Source: a virus. Taken from it: a stretch of 37,480 nucleotides of DNA. This document shows positions 7,238 to 27,093 of the stretch, piece after piece (the first letter of the stretch is position 1; every line of letters begins with the position of its first letter). The notes below the pieces were generated by a model. The model worked only from the letters and a program-made list of their open reading frames with translations, was not told the DNA's origin and did no database searches. Made by a program: the position numbers and the translations under genes. The stretch lies in the IMG/VR virus record IMGVR_UViG_3300050505_000174; one strand, written 5' to 3'.

Positions 7238-8314
7238 CTACTCTTTCTCTTTTCCACATCTTTCAAGCGCTATAATCTTAGCACATAACGGCTTCATTTC
7301 TACGATTTCTTTTTTAAGCTTCTGTATTTCATTCAAGAGCAATGAAATCATCTCAGTGTATTTAACCCCTGCTGGATTTCCTTGTTCATCAACATTGACC
7401 AATTCTGGCATTATCGGTAAAACATCTTCCGCCAACAGTCCATAATGAACCACATCATCTTGTATACCCTTATAGTTAAATGAAACAGGCTTAAGGTTGT
7501 ACAATAATTCACTTGATGAGCTTATGTCTTTAATGTTTATTTTCTTTTGTATTGTTGAGCTTTGAGTGCCAAGCTGTCCCGTTTTGGTATTGATATATAC
7601 TGGTACCTCAGATTCACATACATTTCCAGCGACACCATGTATAAATGCCCTTTGTGATGCAGGGCACCCTGCAACAGAACCATCATTACCGATGCGCACA
7701 GTGTGAGAGTCATTTTCTTTTCCTGCATTACACCCAAGAATCACATTAAAGCTCTGGGATGAACTATAATTTGAACCAGCACTGGTACCTATAGTCGTAT
7801 TAAAAAATGCTCCAGAATTTAAATTTGAAGCGGAAAAAGCACCAACGCTGGTATTACCGGTTCCTTCTTTTAATTTTGAGAGAGATTGGAAAGAAAGTCC
7901 GGTGTTAAAGTTTCCTGAAACTAAGTGAGACAATGATGATATTGCTACGTTACCGTTAGCACCGCTCGCCTGGCTGAGTGACTGGTAACCAATGCCCACG
8001 TTTGATTCTGATGGAAGTGATACGCTGCCAGCATCAATACCGATATATAAGCTAGGAGCACCAACACTAAAAGAATGAATAAAAGTCTTACCGTTGACAT
8101 ACACAACCCCTTCAGAACCATCAAGGTTCGTTAAAGGCAATGATATCTTTTGCGTGGTAAGTGATTGCACTACAGGATTCTTTCCTGCCGTAATAAGCAC
8201 CGTGTTTGCTTTGCAGGCTGTTTGTACATTGATACCATCGCCTATAATATTAATAATATCACCAGCAGGTGTTGCTACACCTTGGTTCCCATCAAAAACT
8301 AATTTGTTTGACAT
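7238..8314 (-). CDS. Tail fibre/spike with C-terminal intramolecular chaperone (peptidase S74) domain
   Basis: Central G-x-x-N-x-x-x-G repeats. The C-terminus SSTIQKKINIKDISSSSELLYNLKPVSFNYKG...HYGLLAEDVLPIMPELV...VKYTEMISLLLNEIQKLKKEI matches the endosialidase-chaperone auto-processing domain. Confidence 0.9.
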   Translation of the reverse strand: MSNKLVFDGNQGVATPAGDIINIIGDGINVQTACKANTVLITAGKNPVVQSLTTQKISLPLTNLDGSEGVVYVNGKTFIHSFSVGAPSLYIGIDAGSVSLPSESNVGIGYQSLSQASGANGNVAISSLSHLVSGNFNTGLSFQSLSKLKEGTGNTSVGAFSASNLNSGAFFNTTIGTSAGSNYSSSQSFNVILGCNAGKENDSHTVRIGNDGSVAGCPASQRAFIHGVAGNVCESEVPVYINTKTGQLGTQSSTIQKKINIKDISSSSELLYNLKPVSFNYKGIQDDVVHYGLLAEDVLPIMPELVNVDEQGNPAGVKYTEMISLLLNEIQKLKKEIVEMKPLCAKIIALERCGKEKE

Positions 8315-8402
8315 AGAGTTCCTTAGTTTCAGTTGTCGACAGTTTGTCGGCAGTTAAATTTTAATGGTAGTATAGAATCAATACGAGACATAAATCAAAG
8401 TT

Positions 8403-8516
8403 TCATTTTTTTTTCTTATATTCATCCAAGAGTGAATGCAGAAATTCTTTCTCTTGTTCTATAAGTTTTACTAATAAAGCAGCGACTATCACAAACAAAA
8501 TAAATACTACTATCAT
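8403..8516 (-). CDS. 37-aa single-pass membrane peptide (below the ORF-track size cutoff)
   Basis: ATG 8516..8514 preceded by AAGGT. Translation is MIVVFILFVIVAALLVKLIEQEKEFLHSLLDEYKKKK. It lies immediately upstream of the S74 fibre gene. Confidence 0.4.
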   Translation of the reverse strand: MIVVFILFVIVAALLVKLIEQEKEFLHSLLDEYKKKK

Positions 8517-8545
8517 GTTATACCTTAACTATATTATTCAATAAC

Positions 8546-8573
8546 TTGACTAGAACAGAAGACCCATTAGAAT
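8546..8573 (+). promoter_or_regulatory. Sigma70-type promoter for HTH gene 8611..8865
   Basis: TTGACT (8546-8551), 16-nt spacer, TAGAAT (8568-8573). Confidence 0.55.
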
Positions 8574-8610
8574 GAAATGAGTAAGTAACACCTTTCCTAC
8601 GGAGCATTCT

Positions 8611-8865
8611 ATGAATCATAATACAAACTCACCCATAACTCACTACATATCTCCTGAAAATGTAGAAAATATCAGAGAAAGATTTGAGGGAGTTATAGAT
8701 CACTTCAAATATACACTCTCTAAAGTATCAGAATTAATAGATATTCCAGCCCCCACACTTTGCAAATTCATACGAGACCGACAAGAAATAACTTTTGTTC
8801 AACTCATAAGAATAGAAGATTTTGTTATTGATATGGAGCGCAATGTTAAAGAAAGCTTCAAATGA
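8611..8865 (+). CDS. Small HTH regulator paralog (84 aa), lone plus-strand gene inside the fibre locus
   Basis: IRERFEGVIDHFKYTLSKVSELIDIPAPTLCKFI...LIRIEDFVIDME aligns by eye with LRERLSKIIAERGFTVSKVARLLDIVPLTLSTFL...LLKIDKFVTDYE of 4524..4769. Confidence 0.75.
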   Translation: MNHNTNSPITHYISPENVENIRERFEGVIDHFKYTLSKVSELIDIPAPTLCKFIRDRQEITFVQLIRIEDFVIDMERNVKESFK

Positions 8866-8868
8866 AAA

Positions 8869-8891
8869 ACCCGGGAGAGTTAAGCCCGGGT
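8869..8891. terminator. GC hairpin ACCCGGG/CCCGGGT between convergent genes
   Basis: 7-bp stem with a 9-nt loop, read directly from the sequence. Confidence 0.5.
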
Positions 8892-8903
8892 AAATAAAAG
8901 GAG

Positions 8904-8928
8904 AACAAACATAACACATGTTTGTTTT
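8904..8928 (+). terminator. Rho-independent-type terminator after the HTH gene
   Basis: AACAAACAT (8904-8912) pairs with ATGTTTGTT (8918-8926) across a 5-nt loop and runs into TTTT. Confidence 0.55.
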
Positions 8929-8936
8929 GGAGTAAG

Positions 8937-9599
8937 CTAAGGGATAAAATAAAATCCATTTCCATATAATTCAGAATTATTATTAAAGTTAACATTTGTC
9001 AGTTGTGGATAATTTGTAGACATAACATGTGATAAACAATTTATAGTGTTGGAAGCAACCTGTATAGCCCCAATAACCGGTGTTACACCTGCAATGCCTG
9101 CTGCATTATATATAACTAATGAACAAGGAAATTGATCAGTACCCACTATAGTATTGGGCAATCCACCTATGAAAGCATTACCGTTGCCTGATCCTTTTGA
9201 AGACAAAGCGATATGGAAGCTAAAGAAAATAACGTTGCCCAGCATTAAATATCGCCCTGTTTGTGTTGCATAGGTAATACCAGCTGAAGATACTGAAAAA
9301 TTGAAAGTAGGTGTCCAGGGAATAGCAGCACCTACTAGACCACCTAAATCTACGGTGATATCTATAGCATGTGCAGCGTTAGCTACATTTATAGCTGTTC
9401 CTGGGGTAATGTTTGCCCATATTGGTGCACCCGATCCAGATCCTATTAATATTTGTCCATCACTCCCCACACCAAAATTATTAATTGCGCCAGCGCCATT
9501 ACCTTTTAAGGGAGCGTGATTTGTCAGAGTTACTTGTTGGGTGCCACCAAAAGAAGTCTCAAGGGGACTGCCACTTCCTATTGCATTTTTTGTAGCCAT
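8937..9599 (-). CDS. Short tail-fibre/receptor-binding paralog 1 (220 aa)
   Basis: N-terminus MATKNAIGSGSPLE is shared with the next two genes. Also carries the G-Q-x-L-I-G ... I-x-V module and a C-terminal W-T-P-T ... G-x-Y ... G-L-P domain. Confidence 0.75.
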   Translation of the reverse strand: MATKNAIGSGSPLETSFGGTQQVTLTNHAPLKGNGAGAINNFGVGSDGQILIGSGSGAPIWANITPGTAINVANAAHAIDITVDLGGLVGAAIPWTPTFNFSVSSAGITYATQTGRYLMLGNVIFFSFHIALSSKGSGNGNAFIGGLPNTIVGTDQFPCSLVIYNAAGIAGVTPVIGAIQVASNTINCLSHVMSTNYPQLTNVNFNNNSELYGNGFYFIP

Positions 9600-9608
9600 T
9601 TTTGCTCC

Positions 9609-10268
9609 TTAGTTCGTAAAGTAAAAGCCAGAAGAAAACAACTGCTTAGAACTACTTGCATTCACTTTTTCATCCCACAATGCGTTATTAACTGATGGTT
9701 GATTGGTAATAAAGTTTATAAGGCCCGTAGCGGTATCTAAATAGCCAAATGCTTGTGGCCAAGGAGCAGCATTAGGGCTTTTAGTTATAAAACCATTCAT
9801 AGGGAAATAGTAGCGGGTAATAGAAAGATCATAGTTGCCTGGTAAGCCAGAGATAGTCATGGTAGAAGGGAAAGTGTTTCCTGTGATGATGACATTGCAA
9901 CTCCAATAAATTAAGTTACCCACTTGCACATAGGAACCAAGTCTGGTGCCATAAGTAAAAGCTTTTGCGGGAGTAAAAGTAATAGTAGGTGTCCATGATT
10001 GTATAGTACCAACTGCCGCCGCTGATAAGGTCACTGAATTTACGCCAGGAGTTACCGTAATTGAACCATCACTTGATATAATCTGGTTATAGTCAGGATC
10101 ACTCCCGCTTGCACCTATAAATAAATCTCCATTAAGAGCTCCTGCAAGAGATGAAATTGCTGCAGTTCCTTGCCCGACTAAAATACCATTCTGAGTCAAT
10201 GTAGCTTGACCAGTGCCACCTTCAGGAACCGTTAATGGTTTATTTCCTATAGCATTCTTTATTGCCAT
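9609..10268 (-). CDS. Short tail-fibre/receptor-binding paralog 2 (219 aa)
   Basis: MAIKNAIGNKPLTVPEGGTGQATL ... SWTPTITF ... ISGLPGN, ending SSGFYFTN (compare NGFYFIP in paralog 1). Confidence 0.75.
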   Translation of the reverse strand: MAIKNAIGNKPLTVPEGGTGQATLTQNGILVGQGTAAISSLAGALNGDLFIGASGSDPDYNQIISSDGSITVTPGVNSVTLSAAAVGTIQSWTPTITFTPAKAFTYGTRLGSYVQVGNLIYWSCNVIITGNTFPSTMTISGLPGNYDLSITRYYFPMNGFITKSPNAAPWPQAFGYLDTATGLINFITNQPSVNNALWDEKVNASSSKQLFSSGFYFTN

Positions 10269-10278
10269 ATATATTTCC

Positions 10279-10983
10279 TTATGCAGTGAAATTTATACCG
10301 CAAATACGGTATGTGTTGGTATTGGTTATTTGACCAAAATATTCAAATGTTTGTTGTCCTGGAGGTGAGCATAATAAAGTACCACCACCTGCAAATACAA
10401 AAGCTGCAGATAATCCAGTCCAATTACCTAATGTAGTATCAGGAGCTGCATTCAATTCAATAGCCCATTGGCTGGTATAAGGGGATGCATTATTGTTAAT
10501 ACTATTAAAGAAAAAAGGAAGACCTGTTATACCTACATCATTACTTGGAGGTGGTACATTAATCACGGTGCCTTTGCTAGTCAAAGTTATTTCAGCAGTG
10601 TATATAGCGAGTTTACCAAACAGAATATATTTACCATTTTGGACTGAATATGTTGGCGGGGTTATAACGTTAGCAGGTGGCGCAATTGATACGCTGGGAG
10701 TCCAGTTTGTCACTACACCCGTACCACCACCCGTATAATTGACCGTAATAGTATTAGCGCCATTGACTACCGTTATATTAGGGCCTGCAGTAATGGTATT
10801 AAATATACTCACTCCCGTATTAGCACCAATCAGTGTCTGTCCATTTGCTGAGGCATTAATAGTGGTAACGGGATTTACCCCGTTACCTTGTAATACACCA
10901 TTAGCAGTATGAGTAGAAGCAGCCGTTGAACCAAATGGCACTTCAAGCGGCTTATTGCTTCCTATAGAATTTCTTGTTGCCAT
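10279..10983 (-). CDS. Short tail-fibre/receptor-binding paralog 3 (234 aa)
   Basis: MATRNSIGSNKPLEVPFG ... NWTPSVSI ... ITGLPFF. Same architecture as paralogs 1 and 2 but with a divergent distal half. Confidence 0.75.
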   Translation of the reverse strand: MATRNSIGSNKPLEVPFGSTAASTHTANGVLQGNGVNPVTTINASANGQTLIGANTGVSIFNTITAGPNITVVNGANTITVNYTGGGTGVVTNWTPSVSIAPPANVITPPTYSVQNGKYILFGKLAIYTAEITLTSKGTVINVPPPSNDVGITGLPFFFNSINNNASPYTSQWAIELNAAPDTTLGNWTGLSAAFVFAGGGTLLCSPPGQQTFEYFGQITNTNTYRICGINFTA

Positions 10984-10991
10984 ATAATTCC

Positions 10992-12935
10992 TTAAACTAT
11001 AGTGATGTTACCCATTGATCCTGGAACAGCAAACCAACCAGTATTAGCTACATTACATACAAGTACCACTGCATCACCAATAGCCGTAGAAGTAAGTGAA
11101 CCGCCAACACCAACGGTGGTAAGTGCATTGGTAAATCGTATTGATACTCCAGCAGTTTGAGCAATCTGGAATCCATTGGCATTCATAGCAGCAACAGCTA
11201 TAGTATCACCAACTGCAGCAACTGCAGGAAGAGTAACCACAACAGGAGCACCACCATTACAGAAATATCCTTGACCTGCAACGCCAGCTTGAGATGCTGT
11301 AATTACTGACCAGGTTACAAATCCACCACCGCCACCACCAGTTGCATTAATAGTTATAGTGTTACCTGCGCCAACAGTGGAGCAATTAGTACCACCCAAT
11401 ATTTGTAATACACCTGCTGCTGGTACAGCTGAACCTGCATCTGCATCAACTTCTAATATACCAACACCAGCACCTGAAACCAGATAACCAGCTACAAATG
11501 CATTAGCACCAAGTCCAATTACCTGATTGCCACCACCACCTATTTGATTGGTAGCTATAGTAAATGCAGCAGTATCTCCTGCATCCATATCAACTATTTG
11601 CTGAAATGAGAGTACACCAGAAGTACCTCCAGAATCTGCACCAAAAGCACCTGTACCTGAGAAATTCCATATATAAGTTCTAGCTGTGGTAACTATTTGT
11701 GCAGTACATGTTCCTACATTGTTTCCTGAATCAGAATCTACATTGGTAAGATCAACCGTTATTTCTAAATAATATTGAGAATTAGTAGGAGCAGTAAATA
11801 TGCCTGTTGCAGGATTAAAATTGTTACCCACATCAAATATCTCTACCAAATCTTGCGTAGAGCCATAGGTATATACAGTTCCATTTCCGGTTACATTGGG
11901 AACGTTAGGAGTATTTTGAGCCAAGAATGCACAATTGACTGCAGTGCCACCACCAGTTGATTCAAGATTGATAGATCCAGGACCATTCGTTATAGTGACC
12001 GTACCACCCACAGAAGTAAGATTGGCAAACACAGGACCAGTTCCTGTTGATCCTATAGGCAATTGTCCATTGGTACCACGACTCATTTTTACTACGTCAT
12101 TGGTATCTACAATCATTATACCATTGTTAGGATTAAGCGTATTGCTACTGGCAAATACACCACCCATGAAAACATTATTAACTTGACGAGTTCCAGAACC
12201 AGAAAGTCCTAAGCGCATAGTATTTGATTCACCAACTACACCAACGTTCTGCAGTAAAATATTGTTGCTTTCAGCTCCGGTATAATCTGAGCCAGCGCCA
12301 AATCCAAGTAGGAGATTGTTATCACCACTTAATAATTGTTGGCCACTTGCAGCTCCATATATTACATTGTTATCAGCTGAAGTAAGTAGAACTGCGCTAT
12401 TGAAACCTGTTGCAGTATTATTTGAACCAGTCAGCGTAAAATTACCTGCATCGCCAAGGAATATATTACCTGAACCAAACATCTGCACTGCGATAGAACT
12501 ACCAATACCCAGAACACCTGAAAGAGTATCAGCAGTAGTTTCTGGTAAGAATACTGAATTATTTAAATTAACGGTAAGTGTATTTAAAGTTCCTACCGTA
12601 TTGATATTTGCACCACCAAGTATATTTACATCACCCATTGCATCAGGAACTACATCTATACCGCTGTCAGGAATAATCGTTGAAATATTTCCACCGCCGC
12701 CACCATTTAAGGGAATCCAGGTTGCCAAGGGACCAGCAGAAGTTGAAGTTCCTGCAAGAGATACTAACACATATACTATCTGTGTCTGCTGATTAAGCCA
12801 TAAATCTAAAAGAGAATGATTAATATCATATTGCGTGGGGGCTGTATCGGCAGAAAAAACACAATCTGGTGGCTGTACAGCATTGGTACCTAGATATGCT
12901 GATCCTCGAGCTGATCCACCTAATCTGTTACTCAT
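10992..12935 (-). CDS. Large modular tail fibre (647 aa) with beta-repeat region, internal C1q-like domain and distal knob
   Basis: G-x-x-N-x-x-x-G repeats end in NTMRLGLSG, followed by the TNGQLPIGSTGTGP...GSINLE module. A C1q-like segment (residues about 333-487, CAFLAQ...IFDVGNNFNPATGIFTAPTNSQYYLE...FVAGYLV) follows. Poly-Gly linkers are present, and the C-terminal domain is paralogous to that of 13568..14212. Confidence 0.8.
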   Translation of the reverse strand: MSNRLGGSARGSAYLGTNAVQPPDCVFSADTAPTQYDINHSLLDLWLNQQTQIVYVLVSLAGTSTSAGPLATWIPLNGGGGGNISTIIPDSGIDVVPDAMGDVNILGGANINTVGTLNTLTVNLNNSVFLPETTADTLSGVLGIGSSIAVQMFGSGNIFLGDAGNFTLTGSNNTATGFNSAVLLTSADNNVIYGAASGQQLLSGDNNLLLGFGAGSDYTGAESNNILLQNVGVVGESNTMRLGLSGSGTRQVNNVFMGGVFASSNTLNPNNGIMIVDTNDVVKMSRGTNGQLPIGSTGTGPVFANLTSVGGTVTITNGPGSINLESTGGGTAVNCAFLAQNTPNVPNVTGNGTVYTYGSTQDLVEIFDVGNNFNPATGIFTAPTNSQYYLEITVDLTNVDSDSGNNVGTCTAQIVTTARTYIWNFSGTGAFGADSGGTSGVLSFQQIVDMDAGDTAAFTIATNQIGGGGNQVIGLGANAFVAGYLVSGAGVGILEVDADAGSAVPAAGVLQILGGTNCSTVGAGNTITINATGGGGGGFVTWSVITASQAGVAGQGYFCNGGAPVVVTLPAVAAVGDTIAVAAMNANGFQIAQTAGVSIRFTNALTTVGVGGSLTSTAIGDAVVLVCNVANTGWFAVPGSMGNITIV

Positions 12936-12998
12936 ACTAAATCCTTTATAATTAATCTTATGTAATAAAACAGCTTATTCTTCGCCATTATTTTCCTT

Positions 12999-13559
12999 TT
13001 AACCCAATCTATATGCACTAAAATAAGTATTATAAGGTTGTAACGAAGGTGATAGGATTCCCACATTAAGAGCAACTCCAAAAACTTGGATTGATATTTG
13101 AATTCCTGAAGTACCAGAAGCTCTAAAAATGAGACTGTTAGTTATGGAGAATCCGCCATCAAAAGAAACATTAAAAGGATTATAAGCCTGAAAAAGATTG
13201 TTGGGATTGATTCCTGAATCAAAATCAGAAAAAAATAAATTCATTCCTAAATTACTACTATCTATACCAGTCAGTGTGACTGAATAATTTACCATATACG
13301 TAGAATTAAGACCCGGAGTCCACATGCCAGTAGTAGAATCATATTCAGAACCATCATTCCATATAACTTGATCAAAAATTATAGGATATATTGTTCCATC
13401 ACCAGTAACATTTGGAATCCCTTCTCCTGAAATTGTTGCATTGAAACTCGGTTGATTTCCATTTGCATATACACCATCTTGTCCAAATACTGCAGGTTGA
13501 TTATTGCTAAATATTATCTGGCCAAATGAGGCATTATTAGCAGCATTATTTGTTGCCAT
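12999..13559 (-). CDS. C1q/TNF-like jelly-roll domain protein (186 aa), probable fibre tip or receptor-binding subunit
   Basis: SFNATI...IIFDQVIWNDGSEYDSTTGMWTPGLNSTYMVNYSV...YFSAYRLG follows the C1q pattern FSA...I-x-F-x-x-V-x-x-N-x-G-x-x-Y...G-x-F-x-x-P-x-x-G-x-Y...FSG-x-L. Confidence 0.6.
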   Translation of the reverse strand: MATNNAANNASFGQIIFSNNQPAVFGQDGVYANGNQPSFNATISGEGIPNVTGDGTIYPIIFDQVIWNDGSEYDSTTGMWTPGLNSTYMVNYSVTLTGIDSSNLGMNLFFSDFDSGINPNNLFQAYNPFNVSFDGGFSITNSLIFRASGTSGIQISIQVFGVALNVGILSPSLQPYNTYFSAYRLG

Positions 13560-13567
13560 GATTTCTC

Positions 13568-14212
13568 CTATTCAACTACAAGATTTCCTTGAGGACCAAA
13601 TTCAACTCGCCATTCTGTATCAGCAGTAATACATATCAAAGATACTCCATCACCGACTGTATTTCCTCCTAAGGAGCCACCTATTCCTGTAGTTGTTTGC
13701 TGATTACCAAAGTATATTGTTTGTCCAGTTCCACACAGAACAGCCCATGAACCTGATTTATGTAAAACTTGTAATCTACTAAATTGAGGAGCAGTAGCAG
13801 GAAGAGTAAGGAGTACTGCACCGCCTTCATTAATCAAATAGCCTGTATTTATATCCATAGCTTGACTAGAAGTAACTACTTCAACCCACGTAAATGTGGT
13901 TGCTGTTGCGGCTATAGTTATACTTCCTGCACCATTAGTTATTTGAATCCCATCTCCAGGTGTAAGTGCCGCTATGATGGGATTTGTCCCCGTATTTCCA
14001 ATTGGTAGTTGCCCGTTAGTAGCTGCCGTAAGAGAGCTAATTGAATTTGTTGCATTACCAATCAGAAGAGAATGATTAAAGGTACCAGAAACGTTTACCG
14101 TTGGATTTACTGCAGGATTACCAGTTATAGTAATATTATTTCCACCTGAAACACTCGTTACGGTACCACCTCCGCCACCACCTGATGAAGCAACTATTGT
14201 TACCTGTGACAT
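13568..14212 (-). CDS. Tail-fibre protein (214 aa) sharing two modules with the 647-aa fibre
   Basis: Poly-Gly SSGGGGGGT, then ATNGQLPIGNTGTNP...GAGSITIA. The C-terminus FTWVEVVTSSQ...LLTLPATAP...GIGGSLGGNTVGDGVSLIC...W aligns with FVTWSVITASQ...VVTLPAVAA...GVGGSLTSTAIGDAVVLVC...W. Confidence 0.75.
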   Translation of the reverse strand: MSQVTIVASSGGGGGGTVTSVSGGNNITITGNPAVNPTVNVSGTFNHSLLIGNATNSISSLTAATNGQLPIGNTGTNPIIAALTPGDGIQITNGAGSITIAATATTFTWVEVVTSSQAMDINTGYLINEGGAVLLTLPATAPQFSRLQVLHKSGSWAVLCGTGQTIYFGNQQTTTGIGGSLGGNTVGDGVSLICITADTEWRVEFGPQGNLVVE

Positions 14213-14221
14213 ACTCTCTCC

Positions 14222-14575
14222 TTAATCATTAGAAGCAAATATAATACCTAGAAATATTCCACCTTCGGTAGGCAAATCTGCTGAAGCTGTCACATACGCT
14301 TGGGTGTATTTAGCTTGTTCAAGTTGATCAGAACTTGCCTGTCTATTTGCGCCAAAGTCGTATACTCTGCCAGATTTAGCAGGACAATATATATGAGGAA
14401 TAACTCCATCAAATGAAACTAATAAAGGTTCATCAGTATCATTAAAAATATCAATTGCTCTTGCAGGATTTTCATATGGATCACCAATGGGAGTATATGC
14501 TAAAGATATATCTCCAAAAGCAACTCCTCTGAGTTCTTCAAAGCGAACTCGAGAAGCATTTGAATAATTCTTCAC
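14222..14575 (-). CDS. Hypothetical protein in the fibre locus (117 aa)
   Basis: ORF track. No family recognised. Confidence 0.55.
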   Translation of the reverse strand: MKNYSNASRVRFEELRGVAFGDISLAYTPIGDPYENPARAIDIFNDTDEPLLVSFDGVIPHIYCPAKSGRVYDFGANRQASSDQLEQAKYTQAYVTASADLPTEGGIFLGIIFASND

Positions 14576-14578
14576 GGA

Positions 14579-14761
14579 CTACTCCTTTGATTTCTGTTCT
14601 TCTGCTTTTATTTCTTCTTCAGCTTTCATTTTTTCAAACTCAGCTTTAAATTCTTCTAATACTTCAAATAGTTCTGTCCATGGTGTGCCAGGCTGCAGAT
14701 CTAATTTAAAAATTCTTTCATTCTTTTTAATCGCAAAATGATATAAAGCAAATTTATCCAT
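14579..14761 (-). CDS. Small acidic helical protein (60 aa), possible fibre assembly factor
   Basis: ORF track. C-terminal Glu/Lys-rich helix. The functional guess rests on position only. Confidence 0.45.
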   Translation of the reverse strand: MDKFALYHFAIKKNERIFKLDLQPGTPWTELFEVLEEFKAEFEKMKAEEEIKAEEQKSKE

Positions 14762-14775
14762 CTGTATCCTTTTAG

Positions 14776-15843
14776 TTAGGGAGCAATGTTAGTAAAATAT
14801 GGAACAAAAACAGCAACACTATTAACATAAAACTTCATAAATCCAGTATTAGTTCCTGAATTACCATTAGTAGAAAGAAGAGTGAGAGCTCCTGCTCCTT
14901 GTGTAGTATTAACTACATTGGTTATACCTGTTTCTCCTAATCCACCAACGCCTGGATCTCCTTGAGCAAAAAGAGCCTGTGTTGCAATAACATTAAGTTC
15001 TGCATCAACATTTCCAGCTATAAATGTATTTAAATGAGCGCCACTGGTACCTAATCTAATAGTATTATTATCCCCAGGTACACCAAAGTTATCTATGCAA
15101 ATATTACTTGTTTCAGTTCCTATATAACCTGAACCAGCTTGACTTCCAATTGCTATATTGTTGTTTCCATCTATAAGCTGCTCTAAACTTCTCCAACCAA
15201 TAGCTGTATTTCTTTCACCAATAGTAATTAAAACACCACTGCTACTTCCAACGAGTGTGTTGTTTACTCCAGAAATAAGAGCTCTGCCTGCAGAAGTACC
15301 TATTAATGTTGATTGTTCTGCTGAAGTTACATTAAGACCACTAAATGCACCCACGGCTGTCACATTTACTGCAGTAGTAATAGCGGGAACCGAAGAGTTT
15401 CCTATTCCTGTTATATTAATACCTGTTACGGTGAAATTACCACTCCCACTTCCAAGAAAAGTGTTTCGAGTACCAAAGTCACTCATAAATCTCACACCAC
15501 CAACATAGATGACGCCATCAGCACCACCAGCACTTGTTATGGGTAAAAATATTGAACCGCCTATGGTTGCATCGTTGGTAACGGTAATATTTGTGAAAGT
15601 TGCATCTCCGCCATTTCCAACAATCTGAACCCAATTAGCAACTGCATCTTGGGTTGAGGCCAGAATCCATATCTGATTTACGGGAGCTCCTGCTACATCT
15701 CTTGCCTGAATCCATATGGTAGATGGTTCATAGTTGTCGAATGCTGTTGGGGCTCTATTGGCATTAGTAACAGGTGCAGGATTGAGAGTCACAAATGGTT
15801 GTACTGAACCAGGCGCTCTTCTTTGAGTTATATTTGTAGCCAT
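14776..15843 (-). CDS. Tail fibre/spike-like protein (355 aa) with G-x-x-N-x-x-x-G beta repeats
   Basis: Start taken at MATNITQRR, preceded by AAGGAG (the track ORF starts 30 nt earlier). Repeats end in NNTIRLGTSG, like NTMRLGLSG in the 647-aa fibre. The N-terminal W-rich motif is also shared with that fibre. Confidence 0.75.
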   Translation of the reverse strand: MATNITQRRAPGSVQPFVTLNPAPVTNANRAPTAFDNYEPSTIWIQARDVAGAPVNQIWILASTQDAVANWVQIVGNGGDATFTNITVTNDATIGGSIFLPITSAGGADGVIYVGGVRFMSDFGTRNTFLGSGSGNFTVTGINITGIGNSSVPAITTAVNVTAVGAFSGLNVTSAEQSTLIGTSAGRALISGVNNTLVGSSSGVLITIGERNTAIGWRSLEQLIDGNNNIAIGSQAGSGYIGTETSNICIDNFGVPGDNNTIRLGTSGAHLNTFIAGNVDAELNVIATQALFAQGDPGVGGLGETGITNVVNTTQGAGALTLLSTNGNSGTNTGFMKFYVNSVAVFVPYFTNIAP

Positions 15844-15919
15844 TATTTTCTCCTTAGTTAATAAGATTTGCACCTATCATAGTAAGTAAAAGTTGCTTAA
15901 AGCAAGCTATAATTAGTAC

Positions 15920-26142: not shown

Positions 26143-27093
26143 TTATGAATTTAATGTGCAAAGCATTTGTGAAATCCATAAGTCGTTGACTACACGGGTA
26201 ACTTCCGAGAAAGTTGCACCAATAGTAACGTTTTGATACAACGCATCAGAGAACTCAGGTCCACGGTATAGAATACGTGCAGAAAAGTTGTCTTGATATA
26301 CTGCAGCGTATGCTTCTAGACCACACACAAATACAGAATATACATCGTTACCCAATGCTGAAGCATGAGGACGAATAAGACCTTGACTTGAAACCATGAA
26401 TCTGACGTTATTTAGGGCGCCCCACTCTGCACCAACCTTAGCTGCTGATTGATTTGGATAATTCCACTTAGGTGTGAAATCATTCAAAGCATTCAAGTCT
26501 TTAACTAAGTTTGAGTGTCCCATTGCTAGAAAAGCATCACGAACAGGAGCGGTACCGAAACGTAACTCACCGATTTCACGATCAAGAATCATCCATGCAT
26601 CATTTGATAATAGACCTGTAGTAACTTCATCAATATCAGATACTGATAAGTTAGTTGGTCTATCACCATTGTTACCACCAGTACAGGTGTACTGTGTAGC
26701 TGATGCTGCCAAGGCATCTCGTGAAAGCTGATCTTCGGTCATTCTCATTGAAAGACCTAAGAGTTCAGAAACTTCCATCAAAACCATATCTTGGTTCTGT
26801 AGGAATACACGTTGGTTTATTGCTGTAAATTGACCATAAATGGATACTGTTGCATCGATGTCCACACGATTAAGAGGAACACCTGCAACAGGAACACCAT
26901 CAGGTGCAAGAGGTACAGGGAATGTAGGTAATCTATCATATCTACTCATACGCAGAGTAGTACCACCTTTAGCAGGCAAGTGTTTGACCGTAGCACCGAG
27001 TTTATGAATTAAACGGGGCGTACGGACGGCGAGTAGAACATCATCAGCCGTCTGTAACACTTCTGGTGGTAGATTATTAGGGCTATTTACCAT
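26143..27093 (-). CDS. Major capsid protein (HK97-fold type, 316 aa)
   Basis: It follows the scaffold gene. The pattern is capsid-like by eye: LRMSRYDRLP...APDGVPVAG..VDIDATVSIYGQFTAINQRV...LGLSMRMTEDQLSRDAL. The gene is visibly GC-richer, consistent with high expression, and has a structured leader upstream. Confidence 0.8.
   Translation of the reverse strand: MVNSPNNLPPEVLQTADDVLLAVRTPRLIHKLGATVKHLPAKGGTTLRMSRYDRLPTFPVPLAPDGVPVAGVPLNRVDIDATVSIYGQFTAINQRVFLQNQDMVLMEVSELLGLSMRMTEDQLSRDALAASATQYTCTGGNNGDRPTNLSVSDIDEVTTGLLSNDAWMILDREIGELRFGTAPVRDAFLAMGHSNLVKDLNALNDFTPKWNYPNQSAAKVGAEWGALNNVRFMVSSQGLIRPHASALGNDVYSVFVCGLEAYAAVYQDNFSARILYRGPEFSDALYQNVTIGATFSEVTRVVNDLWISQMLCTLNS

What the first reader, a model, noticed from the sequence alone, without database searches (positions are those of the whole stretch)
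7238..15843. Eight-gene tail-fibre/receptor-binding super-locus built from shuffled modules
About 8.6 kb, nearly a quarter of the genome, encodes eight fibre-like proteins plus two small accessory ORFs. Modules are re-used combinatorially:
- (a) The N-terminal anchor MA[TI][KR]N[AS]IG..PL..P.G is shared by three tandem paralogs (8937..10983).
- (b) A module N-G-Q-L-P-I-G-x-x-G-x-x-P...G-x-G-S-I-T-I occurs in five proteins.
- (c) G-x-x-N-x-x-x-G beta repeats ending in N-T-[IM]-R-L-G-x-S-G occur in 10992..12935 and 14776..15843, with a more diverged version in 7238..8314.
- (d) The distal knob of the 647-aa fibre is duplicated as the C-terminus of the 214-aa protein.
- (e) C1q-like domains occur twice.
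- (f) One fibre carries an S74 chaperone.

For a 37-kb podovirus-like genome this is an unusually rich set of receptor-binding proteins. It suggests either a branched multi-fibre adsorption apparatus or a broad or switchable host range.
Basis: partly seen in the sequence, partly recalled or inferred. Interest (0 to 1): 0.62.

Follow-up and report, generated by a model that had tools for sequence, protein, structure and literature searches.

The report
Modular multi-fibre host-recognition locus of phage
An uncultured 37-kb podovirus-like phage devotes about a quarter of its genome to eight tail-fibre-like proteins assembled from interchangeable parts, a rich but recognisable version of how phages build and swap host-recognition proteins.

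Summary
Ten tightly packed minus-strand genes (7238-15843) each have a Shine-Dalgarno site. Eight encode fibre or receptor-binding-like proteins, and all six claimed module sharings were reproduced.

Two corrections:
- Residues 11-88 of the three paralogs are not a separate anchor. They are one copy of a 77-aa fibre-shaft repeat, the same as module (b). This repeat is found in over 7,000 representative proteins, has no Pfam or PDB match, and only about the first 10 residues are N-terminus-specific.
- The "duplicated" knob is an old homologue (37% identity).

Models show a beta-sandwich head like phage receptor-binding heads in the paralogs, and a C1q/TNF jelly-roll inside the 647-aa fibre.

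Eight related about 35-38-kb metagenomic genomes carry the same syntenic locus with 4-11 fibre genes. Four N-terminal classes are conserved, while distal heads (knob, C1q, S74) are swapped among them, with the three measured breakpoints lying at glycine-rich linkers.

The most likely reading is a multi-socket adsorption apparatus with exchangeable heads. No switching machinery (reverse transcriptase, invertase, inverted repeats) was found. Co-assembly and branching remain inferred.

Earlier scan notes exist only for this same window. This is a new variant of a known kind, of moderate interest.

The parts
14776..15843 (-). J355: first fibre gene of the locus. It has an N3-class N-terminal domain of about 75 aa, a beta-repeat block (aa about 97-277) ending in NTIRLGTSG, and an 80-aa C-terminal part.
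   Evidence: PHROG 4636 'tail spike protein' 6.7e-11. Similar to E647 (5e-19) and A358 (1.7e-9). An N3-class protein is the first gene of the locus in all the related loci. dN/dS against G001 is 0.04. AAGGAG Shine-Dalgarno site before the ATG at 15843.
14579..14761 (-). I60: small acidic helical accessory protein, conserved right after the first fibre gene.
   Evidence: Orthologues of 59-71 aa sit at the same place in L004, L005, L007, L008, L009, L010 and L011. 100% identical to G001. No family hit.
14222..14575 (-). H117: conserved beta-rich accessory protein (candidate adaptor or assembly factor), function unknown.
   Evidence: 36-62% identity across six genomes. No Pfam, PHROG or PDB match. 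dN/dS 0.15.
13568..14212 (-). G214: short fibre. It has an N5-class N-terminus (MSQVTIVASS-GGGGGG), one 77-aa shaft-repeat unit (aa 45-104) and an E/G-type distal knob (aa 111-213).
   Evidence: Repeat unit at 5e-15. Knob similar to E543-646 at 3.5e-13. PHROG 31660 'tail fiber protein' 1.5e-5. dN/dS 0.14.
12999..13559 (-). F186: stand-alone C1q/TNF-like head protein with a MATNNA N-terminus. It is the fastest-evolving gene of the locus.
   Evidence: Pfam C1q 1.7e-5, 25.4 bits against a cut-off of 23.7. Similar to E345-401 at 7e-6. 87% aa identity and dN/dS 0.57 against G001, while its neighbours are at 98-100% and 0.00-0.15.
10992..12935 (-). E647: long composite fibre. In order: N2-class N-terminal domain (aa 1-77), GGGGG linker, beta-repeat block (aa about 126-262, ending NTMRLGLSG), one shaft-repeat unit (aa 270-330), internal C1q/TNF jelly-roll (aa 335-487), half-unit, GGGGGG linker, distal knob (aa 541-647).
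   Evidence: AF2 model has confident domains at 30-60, 335-487 and 541-647. Foldseek against PDB gives C1q/Caprin-2/C1QL/TNF ligands at E 5e-7 to 1e-5, TM 0.64-0.72. BFVD hits are uncultured-phage C1q proteins and an L-shaped tail fibre. 149 homologues, many on 34-42-kb contigs. dN/dS 0.06.
10279..10983 (-). D234: short knobbed fibre, paralog 1 of 3. It has the N1-class peptide MATRNSIGS, one 77-aa shaft unit (aa 12-87) and a beta-sandwich head.
   Evidence: The D orthogroup is separately supported (100/99) in the tree. The distal half of the head is replaced relative to the L004 orthologue.
9609..10268 (-). C219: short knobbed fibre, paralog 2 of 3, with the same architecture.
   Evidence: unit at 11-84, 6e-17. 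The C orthogroup has 100/99 support.
8937..9599 (-). B220: short knobbed fibre, paralog 3 of 3, and the last gene of the operon.
   Evidence: In the AF2 model, aa 91-220 form a beta-sandwich with pLDDT about 80, and aa 1-90 are not modelled as a monomer. Foldseek finds Noumeavirus NMV_189 (E 2e-3, TM 0.64), the Det7 tailspike, and TP901-1/PSA receptor-binding heads.
8870..8926 (-). Two tandem hairpin terminators that end the J-to-B operon.
   Evidence: The RNA fold has -19.6 kcal/mol, z = -3.7, and no shuffle out of 200 folds as well. Both stems are followed by U runs.
8403..8516 (-). 37-aa membrane-peptide ORF heading the separate transcription unit of the S74 fibre.
   Evidence: Read from the sequence. 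An orthologous 37-aa gene is called at the same place in L004.
7238..8314 (-). A358: fibre with an N6-class N-terminus (a half-unit of the shaft motif), a diverged beta-repeat block ending in HTVRIG, and a C-terminal Peptidase_S74 intramolecular chaperone with an SS..K..NI motif at aa 252-261.
   Evidence: Pfam PF13884 3e-9. Five PHROG tail-fibre or tailspike families plus one minor-tail family. Weak match to the T5 L-shaped tail fibre 8hqz. Motif alignment with relatives.

Best explanation
This is the host-recognition (adsorption) module of an uncultured phage that has a P22-type portal and no detected tape-measure or sheath gene.

**Transcription.** One late operon (J, I, H, G, F, E, D, C, B) ends at a double terminator. 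A separately transcribed gene pair follows (37-aa peptide, then the S74 fibre A).

**Parts.** The eight fibre-like proteins are built from a small parts list:
- N-terminal modules in a few classes: a roughly 70-aa domain in J and E; a roughly 10-aa peptide MA[TI]xN[AS]IG in B, C and D, with a similar MATNNA start in F; and MSQV..GGGGGG in G.
- Shaft modules: a beta-repeat block ending in NTxRxG, and a 77-aa GGTG...NGQLLIG...GSITI unit with its half-units.
- Oligo-glycine linkers.
- Distal heads: the beta-sandwich head of B/C/D, the E/G knob, the C1q/TNF jelly-roll, and an S74 chaperone.

**Shown.** The modules and their sharing are real, and the genes are under purifying selection. The locus and its four N-terminal classes are conserved and syntenic in 8 of the 9 genomes compared. 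Distal heads are exchanged among the N-terminal classes.

**Inferred.** The N-terminal modules dock trimeric fibres to distinct sockets on the tail or on other fibres, as in branched receptor-binding complexes. The distal heads bind different surface receptors. The S74 domain folds its fibre and is then cleaved off. Paralogs of one class (B, C, D) use the same kind of socket with different specificities. The particle would therefore recognise several receptors, either for a wider host range or for stepwise binding to one host.
For: **Phage context.** Portal hits Pfam P22_portal at 5.4e-48. Capsid and terminase hits were also found.

**Module sharing.**

**Folds.**

**Family hits.**

**Selection.** dN/dS is 0.00-0.15 for E, G, H, I and J, and 0.57 for the C1q protein F. 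This fits published hypervariable C1q receptor-binding genes next to tail fibres in pelagiphages (PMC3909814).

**Synteny.** The locus is syntenic in L004-L011, with 4-11 fibre genes covering about 25-29% of 35-38-kb contigs.

**Class and head combinations (unbiased clustering).**
- N-terminal classes N1, N2, N3 and N4/5 are present in 8 of 9 genomes.
- The E/G knob is paired with N1, N2, N4 and N5.
- S74 is paired with N1, N2 and N6.
- C1q is paired with N1, N2 and N5.

**Breakpoints at glycine linkers.**
- E against L005_707: identity drops after about aa 530.
- J against L005_326: identity drops after about aa 75.
- D against L004_223: the distal half is replaced.

**The N1 peptide.** It heads about 25 of the 150 best profile hits, in proteins of 212-1436 aa. 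This parallels the docking peptide of secondary receptor-binding proteins in KP32-type phages (PMC13352976).

**Three maintained paralogs.** B, C and D form three separately supported orthogroups, each with a window and an L004 member.

**Block inheritance.** The locus is 95.7% identical to G001, while head and tail genes are 89% identical and the ejection genes are unalignable. This suggests the locus is inherited or exchanged as a block.
Against: - There is no direct evidence that any of these proteins is in the virion. No relative with this fibre locus is among the 50,697 deposited phage records.
- No T4 gp10-like branching domain or known anchor domain was detected. The J/E N-terminal domain has no Pfam or PDB match.
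- Monomer models cannot show trimerisation or docking.
- The beta-repeat block and the E/G knob have no solved or curated relative.
- The host and receptors are unknown.
Confidence: 0.7

Rival explanations
1. Only one or two of the proteins are structural. The others are spare or alternative cassettes kept as raw material for recombination, or are made for a non-virion role.
For: Modules clearly recombine among genomes. The number of fibre genes varies from 4 to 11 among relatives.
Against: All the genes sit in one operon, each with its own Shine-Dalgarno site and intact frame. dN/dS is 0.00-0.15 for E, G, H, I and J. The three paralog lineages are maintained separately across genomes. The N-terminal classes are conserved, which is expected only if they are used for assembly.
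Confidence: 0.12
2. Some of the short knobbed proteins (B, C, D, F) are capsid or neck decorations (head fibres or whiskers) rather than tail receptor-binding proteins.
For: They are short: one shaft unit plus a head. Their docking partner is unknown. Trimeric knobbed head fibres exist in other phages (background knowledge).
Against: The genes lie after the ejection-protein genes, where P22-type phages encode the tailspike, and not beside the capsid gene. The head fold resembles receptor-binding heads of TP901-1, PSA and the Det7 tailspike. In relatives the same N1 peptide carries the E/G knob or an S74 C-terminus, which are otherwise found on long fibres.
Confidence: 0.12
3. B, C and D co-assemble into one heterotrimeric fibre, like the three chains of C1q, rather than forming three homotrimers.
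For: They are three tandem genes of nearly equal length that share the N-terminal peptide and shaft unit. They are conserved as a 1:1:1 trio in L004, and at least a D/C pair lies on a third contig.
Against: L005 has two N1 proteins with unrelated heads, and most relatives have only one. Structural matches of the head are to proteins known from the literature to be homotrimeric receptor-binding heads. No multimer prediction was possible.
Confidence: 0.08
4. The locus is a programmed host-range switch that works by a diversity-generating retroelement, DNA inversion or phase variation.
For: Several alternative heads share N-termini, which is the substrate such systems use.
Against: No reverse transcriptase, invertase or recombinase domain was found in the window proteins scanned. 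All the genes are on one strand. The only DNA repeats are 16-32 nt, and there are no long inverted repeats.
Confidence: 0.02

Closest known systems
Branched multi-RBP (receptor-binding protein) systems of podoviruses and Ackermannviridae (Klebsiella phages KP32/K11/KP34, E. coli phage G7C, CBA120 TSP1-4)
   Same: Several receptor-binding proteins are encoded side by side. N-terminal structural modules are conserved while distal specificity modules are exchanged. Secondary proteins start with a short conserved peptide (PMC13352976).
   Different: This locus has eight fibre-like proteins in a 37-kb genome, against two in the KP32-type podophages and four in CBA120. No T4 gp10-like branching domain and no T7-type anchor was detected. 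The heads are small knobs and C1q folds, not depolymerase beta-helices. Assembly is untested.
Tail fibre plus C1q-domain receptor-binding genes of HTVC010P-type pelagiphages and other uncultured phages (Mizuno et al. 2014, PMC3909814; cryoconite phages, PMC7468147)
   Same: C1q-like heads are encoded next to tail-fibre genes and evolve faster than their surroundings. Here F186 has dN/dS 0.57. YadA-like and S74 modules are reported in the same fibres.
   Different: The window has one stand-alone C1q protein and one C1q domain embedded in the middle of a long fibre that continues to a second distal knob. The phage lineage is different: TerL is only about 35% identical to pelagiphage terminases.
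Endosialidase / T5 L-shaped tail-fibre type fibres with a C-terminal Peptidase_S74 intramolecular chaperone
   Same: A358 carries the S74 domain with the SS..K..NI motif after a beta-repeat shaft.
   Different: A358 is short (358 aa) and has no enzymatic domain. It is transcribed apart from the other fibres, behind a convergent HTH (helix-turn-helix) gene and a membrane-peptide ORF.
P22 tailspike locus
   Same: The position is the same, after the ejection-protein genes and a small opposite-strand accessory region. The portal is P22-type.
   Different: P22 has a single tailspike with a head-binding domain. Here there are eight unrelated fibre-like proteins, and no head-binding-domain hit.

Membership tests
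Peptidase_S74 intramolecular-chaperone fibres | C-terminal PF13884 domain above the curated threshold | tested here: met
   A358 aa 257-306, 37.4 bits against a cut-off of 22, E 3e-9.
Peptidase_S74 intramolecular-chaperone fibres | Ser/Lys cleavage motif (SSxxxKxNI) at the start of the domain | tested here: met
   A358 has SSTIQKKINI at aa 252-261, with one extra residue compared with relatives that have SSKEIKTNI or SSRRFKDNI.
Peptidase_S74 intramolecular-chaperone fibres | Autoproteolytic release of the chaperone after trimer folding | not testable with these tools
   This needs expression and mass determination.
C1q/TNF-like jelly-roll heads | Sequence match to Pfam C1q above the gathering score | tested here: met
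   F186 scores 25.4 bits against 23.7, but only over profile positions 17-65 of 127. E647 has no Pfam hit.
C1q/TNF-like jelly-roll heads | Ten-strand jelly-roll fold superposable on gC1q/TNF structures | tested here: met
   E647 aa 335-487 (pLDDT 72-92 in most of the domain, dipping to 55-69 in a few stretches) matches Caprin-2, C1QL1-3, C1q, EDA and APRIL at E 5e-7 to 1e-5, TM 0.64-0.72. F186 itself was not modelled.
C1q/TNF-like jelly-roll heads | Trimeric assembly | not testable with these tools
   No multimer prediction was available.
Branched RBP (receptor-binding protein) complexes (KP32/CBA120/G7C type) | Primary RBP with an anchor domain plus a T4 gp10-like branching domain | tested here: not met
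   No Pfam or PHROG hit of that kind in any of the ten proteins. The J/E N-terminal domain has no Pfam or PDB relative. A fold-level search restricted to these domains was not possible.
Branched RBP (receptor-binding protein) complexes (KP32/CBA120/G7C type) | Secondary RBPs begin with a short conserved docking peptide, followed by variable specificity domains | tested here: inconclusive
   MA[TI]xN[AS]IG heads B, C and D. N1-class N-termini head 13 proteins in 8 of the 9 genomes and carry at least five different head types. About 25 of the 150 best profile hits begin with it. Its binding function is unknown.
Branched RBP (receptor-binding protein) complexes (KP32/CBA120/G7C type) | Physical interaction between RBPs and co-incorporation in the virion | not testable with these tools
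   No cultured member, and no multimer modelling.
P22-like podoviruses | P22-type portal | tested here: met
   PF16510 at 5.4e-48.
P22-like podoviruses | Tailspike with a P22 head-binding N-terminal domain | tested here: not met
   No such Pfam hit in any fibre protein.
YadA-like (trimeric autotransporter) head repeats, for the beta-repeat block | Sequence match to curated head-repeat families or solved YadA-like heads | tested here: not met
   No Pfam hit. A profile of nine blocks finds nothing in the PDB. The only links are names given by others to homologues (P0022; BFVD rank 27).
Programmed host-range switches (DGR, i.e. diversity-generating retroelement; Gin/Cin-type inversion) | Reverse transcriptase or invertase, plus template or inverted repeats flanking the variable part | tested here: not met
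   No such domains were found in the window proteins scanned. No long inverted or direct repeats.

The most novel reading that the evidence does not exclude
All eight fibres are mounted at once through a conserved 'socket code'. Four N-terminal classes would each fit a distinct docking site on the tail or on another fibre. The three paralogs B, C and D would fill one socket type, together or as a heterotrimer. That would give this 37-kb phage clade the most elaborate receptor-binding apparatus per genome size among podovirus-like phages. It would also provide a new set of docking modules unrelated to the T7-anchor and T4 gp10-branching system.
Probability: 0.25. Interest if true: 0.65.

Novelty: new variant of a known kind. 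Interest (0 to 1): 0.42.

Why it matters
Receptor-binding proteins set phage host range, and their modular logic is the basis of host-range engineering.

This locus, together with the eight related genomes, gives a clean natural data set. Conserved N-terminal classes can be separated from freely exchanged heads, with breakpoints at glycine linkers, in a clade that has no cultured member.

It also points to several abundant but uncurated fibre modules that annotation pipelines currently miss:
- a 77-aa shaft repeat present in over 7,000 representative proteins, with up to 49 matched stretches in one protein;
- the J/E N-terminal domain;
- the E/G knob.

If the fibres are co-mounted, the clade would extend the known range of branched adsorption devices.

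Tried and rejected
**Searches among cultured phages.**
- Megablast of the locus, and tblastn of the portal and of E647, against 50,697 phage records gave no match.
- Only TerL finds distant cultured relatives, at about 35% identity: pelagiphages and Alteromonas ZP6.
- HTVC106P was inspected and does not share the fibre locus.

**Host assignment failed.**
- The genome-contig scan with the portal found nothing.
- The viral-contig scans found only the near-identical fragment G001.

**Sequence searches of the PDB.** Searches with E647, J355, A358, the H family, the 77-aa unit, the J/E N-terminal domain and the beta-repeat block gave nothing significant.

**Domain-wise PHROG scans.** Scans of the knobs and N-terminal domains gave nothing useful.

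**Clustering.** A first, looser single-linkage clustering over-merged the classes and was replaced by a stricter one.

**Rejected ideas.**
- A programmed switch (no enzymes, no repeats).
- The locus being an artefact of low-complexity Gly/Asn/Thr-rich sequence. An independent profile and the purifying selection argue against this.
- The knob of G being a recent duplicate of E's (37% identity; a relative's knob, L008_233, is closer to E's at 55%).

Full report
**What is there**

The window is essentially a whole phage-like genome of about 37.5 kb. It has a large terminase, a P22-type portal (Pfam PF16510, 5.4e-48) and a major head protein. It also has several unassigned structural proteins and RusA and SSB genes. 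No tape-measure or sheath hit was found.

On the minus strand, downstream of the putative ejection-protein genes and a small opposite-strand island, lie ten closely spaced genes. In order they are J355, I60, H117, G214, F186, E647, D234, C219, B220 and, after a gap, A358.
- Every gene has an AGGA/AAGGAG ribosome-binding site.
- B220 is followed by two U-tailed hairpins (z = -3.7).
- Next come a convergent 84-aa gene on the plus strand and then a 37-aa membrane-peptide ORF (8403-8516).
- A358 follows, so it is a separate transcription unit.

**Check of the six claims**

BLASTP among the ten proteins reproduces all the claimed links:

| Link | Result |
|---|---|
| B/C/D with each other | full length, E 1e-18 to 1e-24 |
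| B/C/D with G46-97 and E270-333 | shared module |
| E with J | 5e-19 |
| A with J; A with E | 1.7e-9; 1e-5 |
| E543-646 with G111-213 | 37.5% identity, 3.5e-13 |
| E345-401 with F48-101 | 7e-6 |

Family hits agree with this:
- A358 hits Pfam Peptidase_S74, and F186 hits Pfam C1q above its cut-off.
- A358 hits six PHROG tail families (tail fibre, tailspike and minor tail).
- J355 hits the 'tail spike protein' PHROG at 6.7e-11.
- G214 hits a 'tail fiber protein' PHROG.

**What the exhaustive search changed**

A profile of the B/C/D family, searched against 1.84 billion representatives, found 7,229 proteins at E <= 1e-3.
- Nearly all of them match only profile positions of about 7-110. Many match repeatedly, with up to 30 matched stretches in a 2,511-aa protein and 49 in a 5,556-aa protein.
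- In P0134 the unit is an exact 77-aa tandem repeat: FPITVPEGGTG..HGILVGEG..NGQLLIGSTG..LTAGSGITITN..GSITI.
- A profile made only from four P0134 units finds exactly one unit in each of C, G, D, B and E. It finds none in A, F, H or J.

That peptide is nevertheless meaningful. About 25 of the 150 best hits, proteins of 212-1436 aa, begin with it at residue 1. The unit has no Pfam family and no solved relative by sequence. Its only annotation is PHROG 31660, 'tail fiber protein'.

**Folds**

- **B220.** With a 16-sequence alignment, the C-terminal 130 residues model as a beta-sandwich (pLDDT about 80). The shaft part is not modelled, as expected for a monomer of a trimeric fibre. Foldseek places the head nearest to Noumeavirus NMV_189. 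The next matches are the Det7 tailspike and the receptor-binding heads of lactococcal phage TP901-1 and Listeria phage PSA. E-values are weak (2e-3 and upward), but probability is 1.0 for the first six matches.
- **E647.** The model has three confident globular parts. Residues 335-487 superpose on gC1q and TNF-family structures. In the viral library the best matches are C1q-domain proteins of uncultured phages, a Xanthomonas phage L-shaped tail fibre and a 'YadA-like head' phage protein.

**Genes are real and constrained**

The IMG/VR fragment G001 is 95.7% identical over the locus. It is only 89% identical over the head and tail genes, and almost unalignable over the ejection genes.
- Against G001, dN/dS is 0.04-0.15 for J, H, G and E, and I is identical at the protein level.
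- The stand-alone C1q protein F stands out at 87% identity and dN/dS 0.57.
- This matches published reports that C1q-like genes next to tail fibres are hypervariable candidate receptor binders in pelagiphages and cryoconite phages.

**The locus is a clade trait, and the shuffling is real**

E647 has 149 homologues, many on contigs of 34-42 kb. Eight such contigs were fetched.

All have the same layout:
1. ejection-type genes;
2. a short opposite-strand island;
3. a first fibre gene;
4. a 59-71-aa gene in seven of the eight;
5. one or two genes of about 110 aa (H-like);
6. three to nine further fibre-like genes.

This takes 9-11 kb, or 25-29% of the contig, in the four loci where it was measured.

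The first 45 and last 100 residues of the 58 fibre-like proteins were clustered without prior labels.
- **N-terminal classes:**

| Class | Members |
|---|---|
| N1 | B, C, D type |
| N2 | E type |
| N3 | J type, always the first gene |
| N4/N5 | G type |
| N6 | A type |

- N1, N2, N3 and N4/5 occur together in 8 of the 9 genomes.
- **C-terminal heads cross these classes:**

| Head | N-terminal classes it is paired with |
|---|---|
| E/G knob | N1, N2, N4, N5 |
| S74 domain | N1, N2, N6 |
| C1q | N1, N2, N5 |

Concrete breakpoints:
- E647 against L005_707 is 43-90% identical up to about residue 530, at the GGGGGG linker. Beyond that point L005_707 carries a G-like unit plus knob.
- J355 against L005_326 is 57-80% identical up to about residue 75, at GNGG, and unrelated afterwards.
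- D234 against its L004 orthologue loses similarity in the distal half of the head.
- L008_233 joins the N1 peptide and shaft to a knob that is 55% identical to E's.

B, C and D fall into three separately supported orthogroups, each with window and L004 members. The triplication is therefore old and all three copies are kept.

**Mechanism**

The pattern of a conserved, syntenic N-terminal class with a variable distal head is the standard signature of structural attachment at the N-terminus and receptor specificity at the C-terminus. The closest worked example is the branched systems of Klebsiella podophages. There a primary protein carries anchor and branching domains, and a secondary protein docks through a 29-residue conserved N-terminal peptide.

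By analogy, I infer the following:
- The roughly 70-aa domain of J and E binds the tail.
- The short peptides of B/C/D, possibly F, and G dock to other sites or to other fibres.
- Several heads are displayed per particle.

This step is inference. No gp10-like branching domain or known anchor was detected, and the J/E domain has no Pfam or PDB relative. H117 and I60 are more conserved than the fibres and always sit beside the first fibre gene. That makes them candidates for an adaptor or assembly factor, but they have no detectable relatives.

Nothing supports a programmed switch.

**Novelty and score**

Modular, multi-copy receptor-binding loci and C1q or S74 fibre modules are known. Four things are new here:
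- the density, with eight fibre-like genes in 37 kb and up to eleven in a relative;
- a conserved four-class N-terminal scheme in an uncultured clade that shares no fibre homology with deposited phages;
- an internal C1q domain within a fibre that carries a second distal knob;
- several abundant uncurated modules.

I rate it a new variant of a known kind, with interest of about 0.4.

**Limits**

- The host is unknown.
- No multimer modelling was available.
- The earlier notes of this scan concern this same window only.

Noticed in passing
L003 476-864 (G001 = IMGVR_UViG_3300028381_000034), matching window position 26787 inside the capsid gene 26143-27093: In the close relative, the major-capsid gene is interrupted by an insertion of about 390 nt. 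The insertion carries an 84-aa Cys-rich (CxxC...CxxC) ORF and splits the frame into 122-aa and 215-aa parts. It may be an intron or a mobile insertion. No Rfam match at E <= 0.1.
   Followed up: partly
window 16621-19550: The putative ejection-protein genes (422, 401 and part of 217 aa) are almost unalignable at the DNA level between the window and G001, although both flanks are 89-96% identical. This block has been replaced or has diverged very fast.
   Followed up: no
window 8403-8516 (-): A 37-aa ORF (hydrophobic helix followed by a charged tail, ending in a run of nine A before TGA) heads the S74-fibre transcription unit. It is conserved at the same place in L004 (9575-9688).
   Followed up: partly
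L007 7216-8091, L008 12781-13476, L010 7228-8133: Relatives encode 230-300-aa proteins, inside the fibre locus, with up to nine consecutive glycines in many runs. Two of them start with the same MATNNAIN-type peptide as the window's paralogs. Their function is unknown.
   Followed up: no
window 7238-15873, upstream of all ten starts: Every gene has a strong AGGA/AAGGAG Shine-Dalgarno site despite the low G+C content (about 36-40%). From background knowledge, this argues against a host group that makes little use of Shine-Dalgarno sites, such as Bacteroidota. The host remains unassigned.
   Followed up: no
proteins P0127-P0274: The 77-aa GGTG/NGQLLIG shaft unit is present in 7,229 representative proteins, with up to 49 matched stretches in one 5,556-aa protein. 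It has no Pfam family and no solved structure by sequence. It is a candidate for a new curated repeat family.
   Followed up: partly
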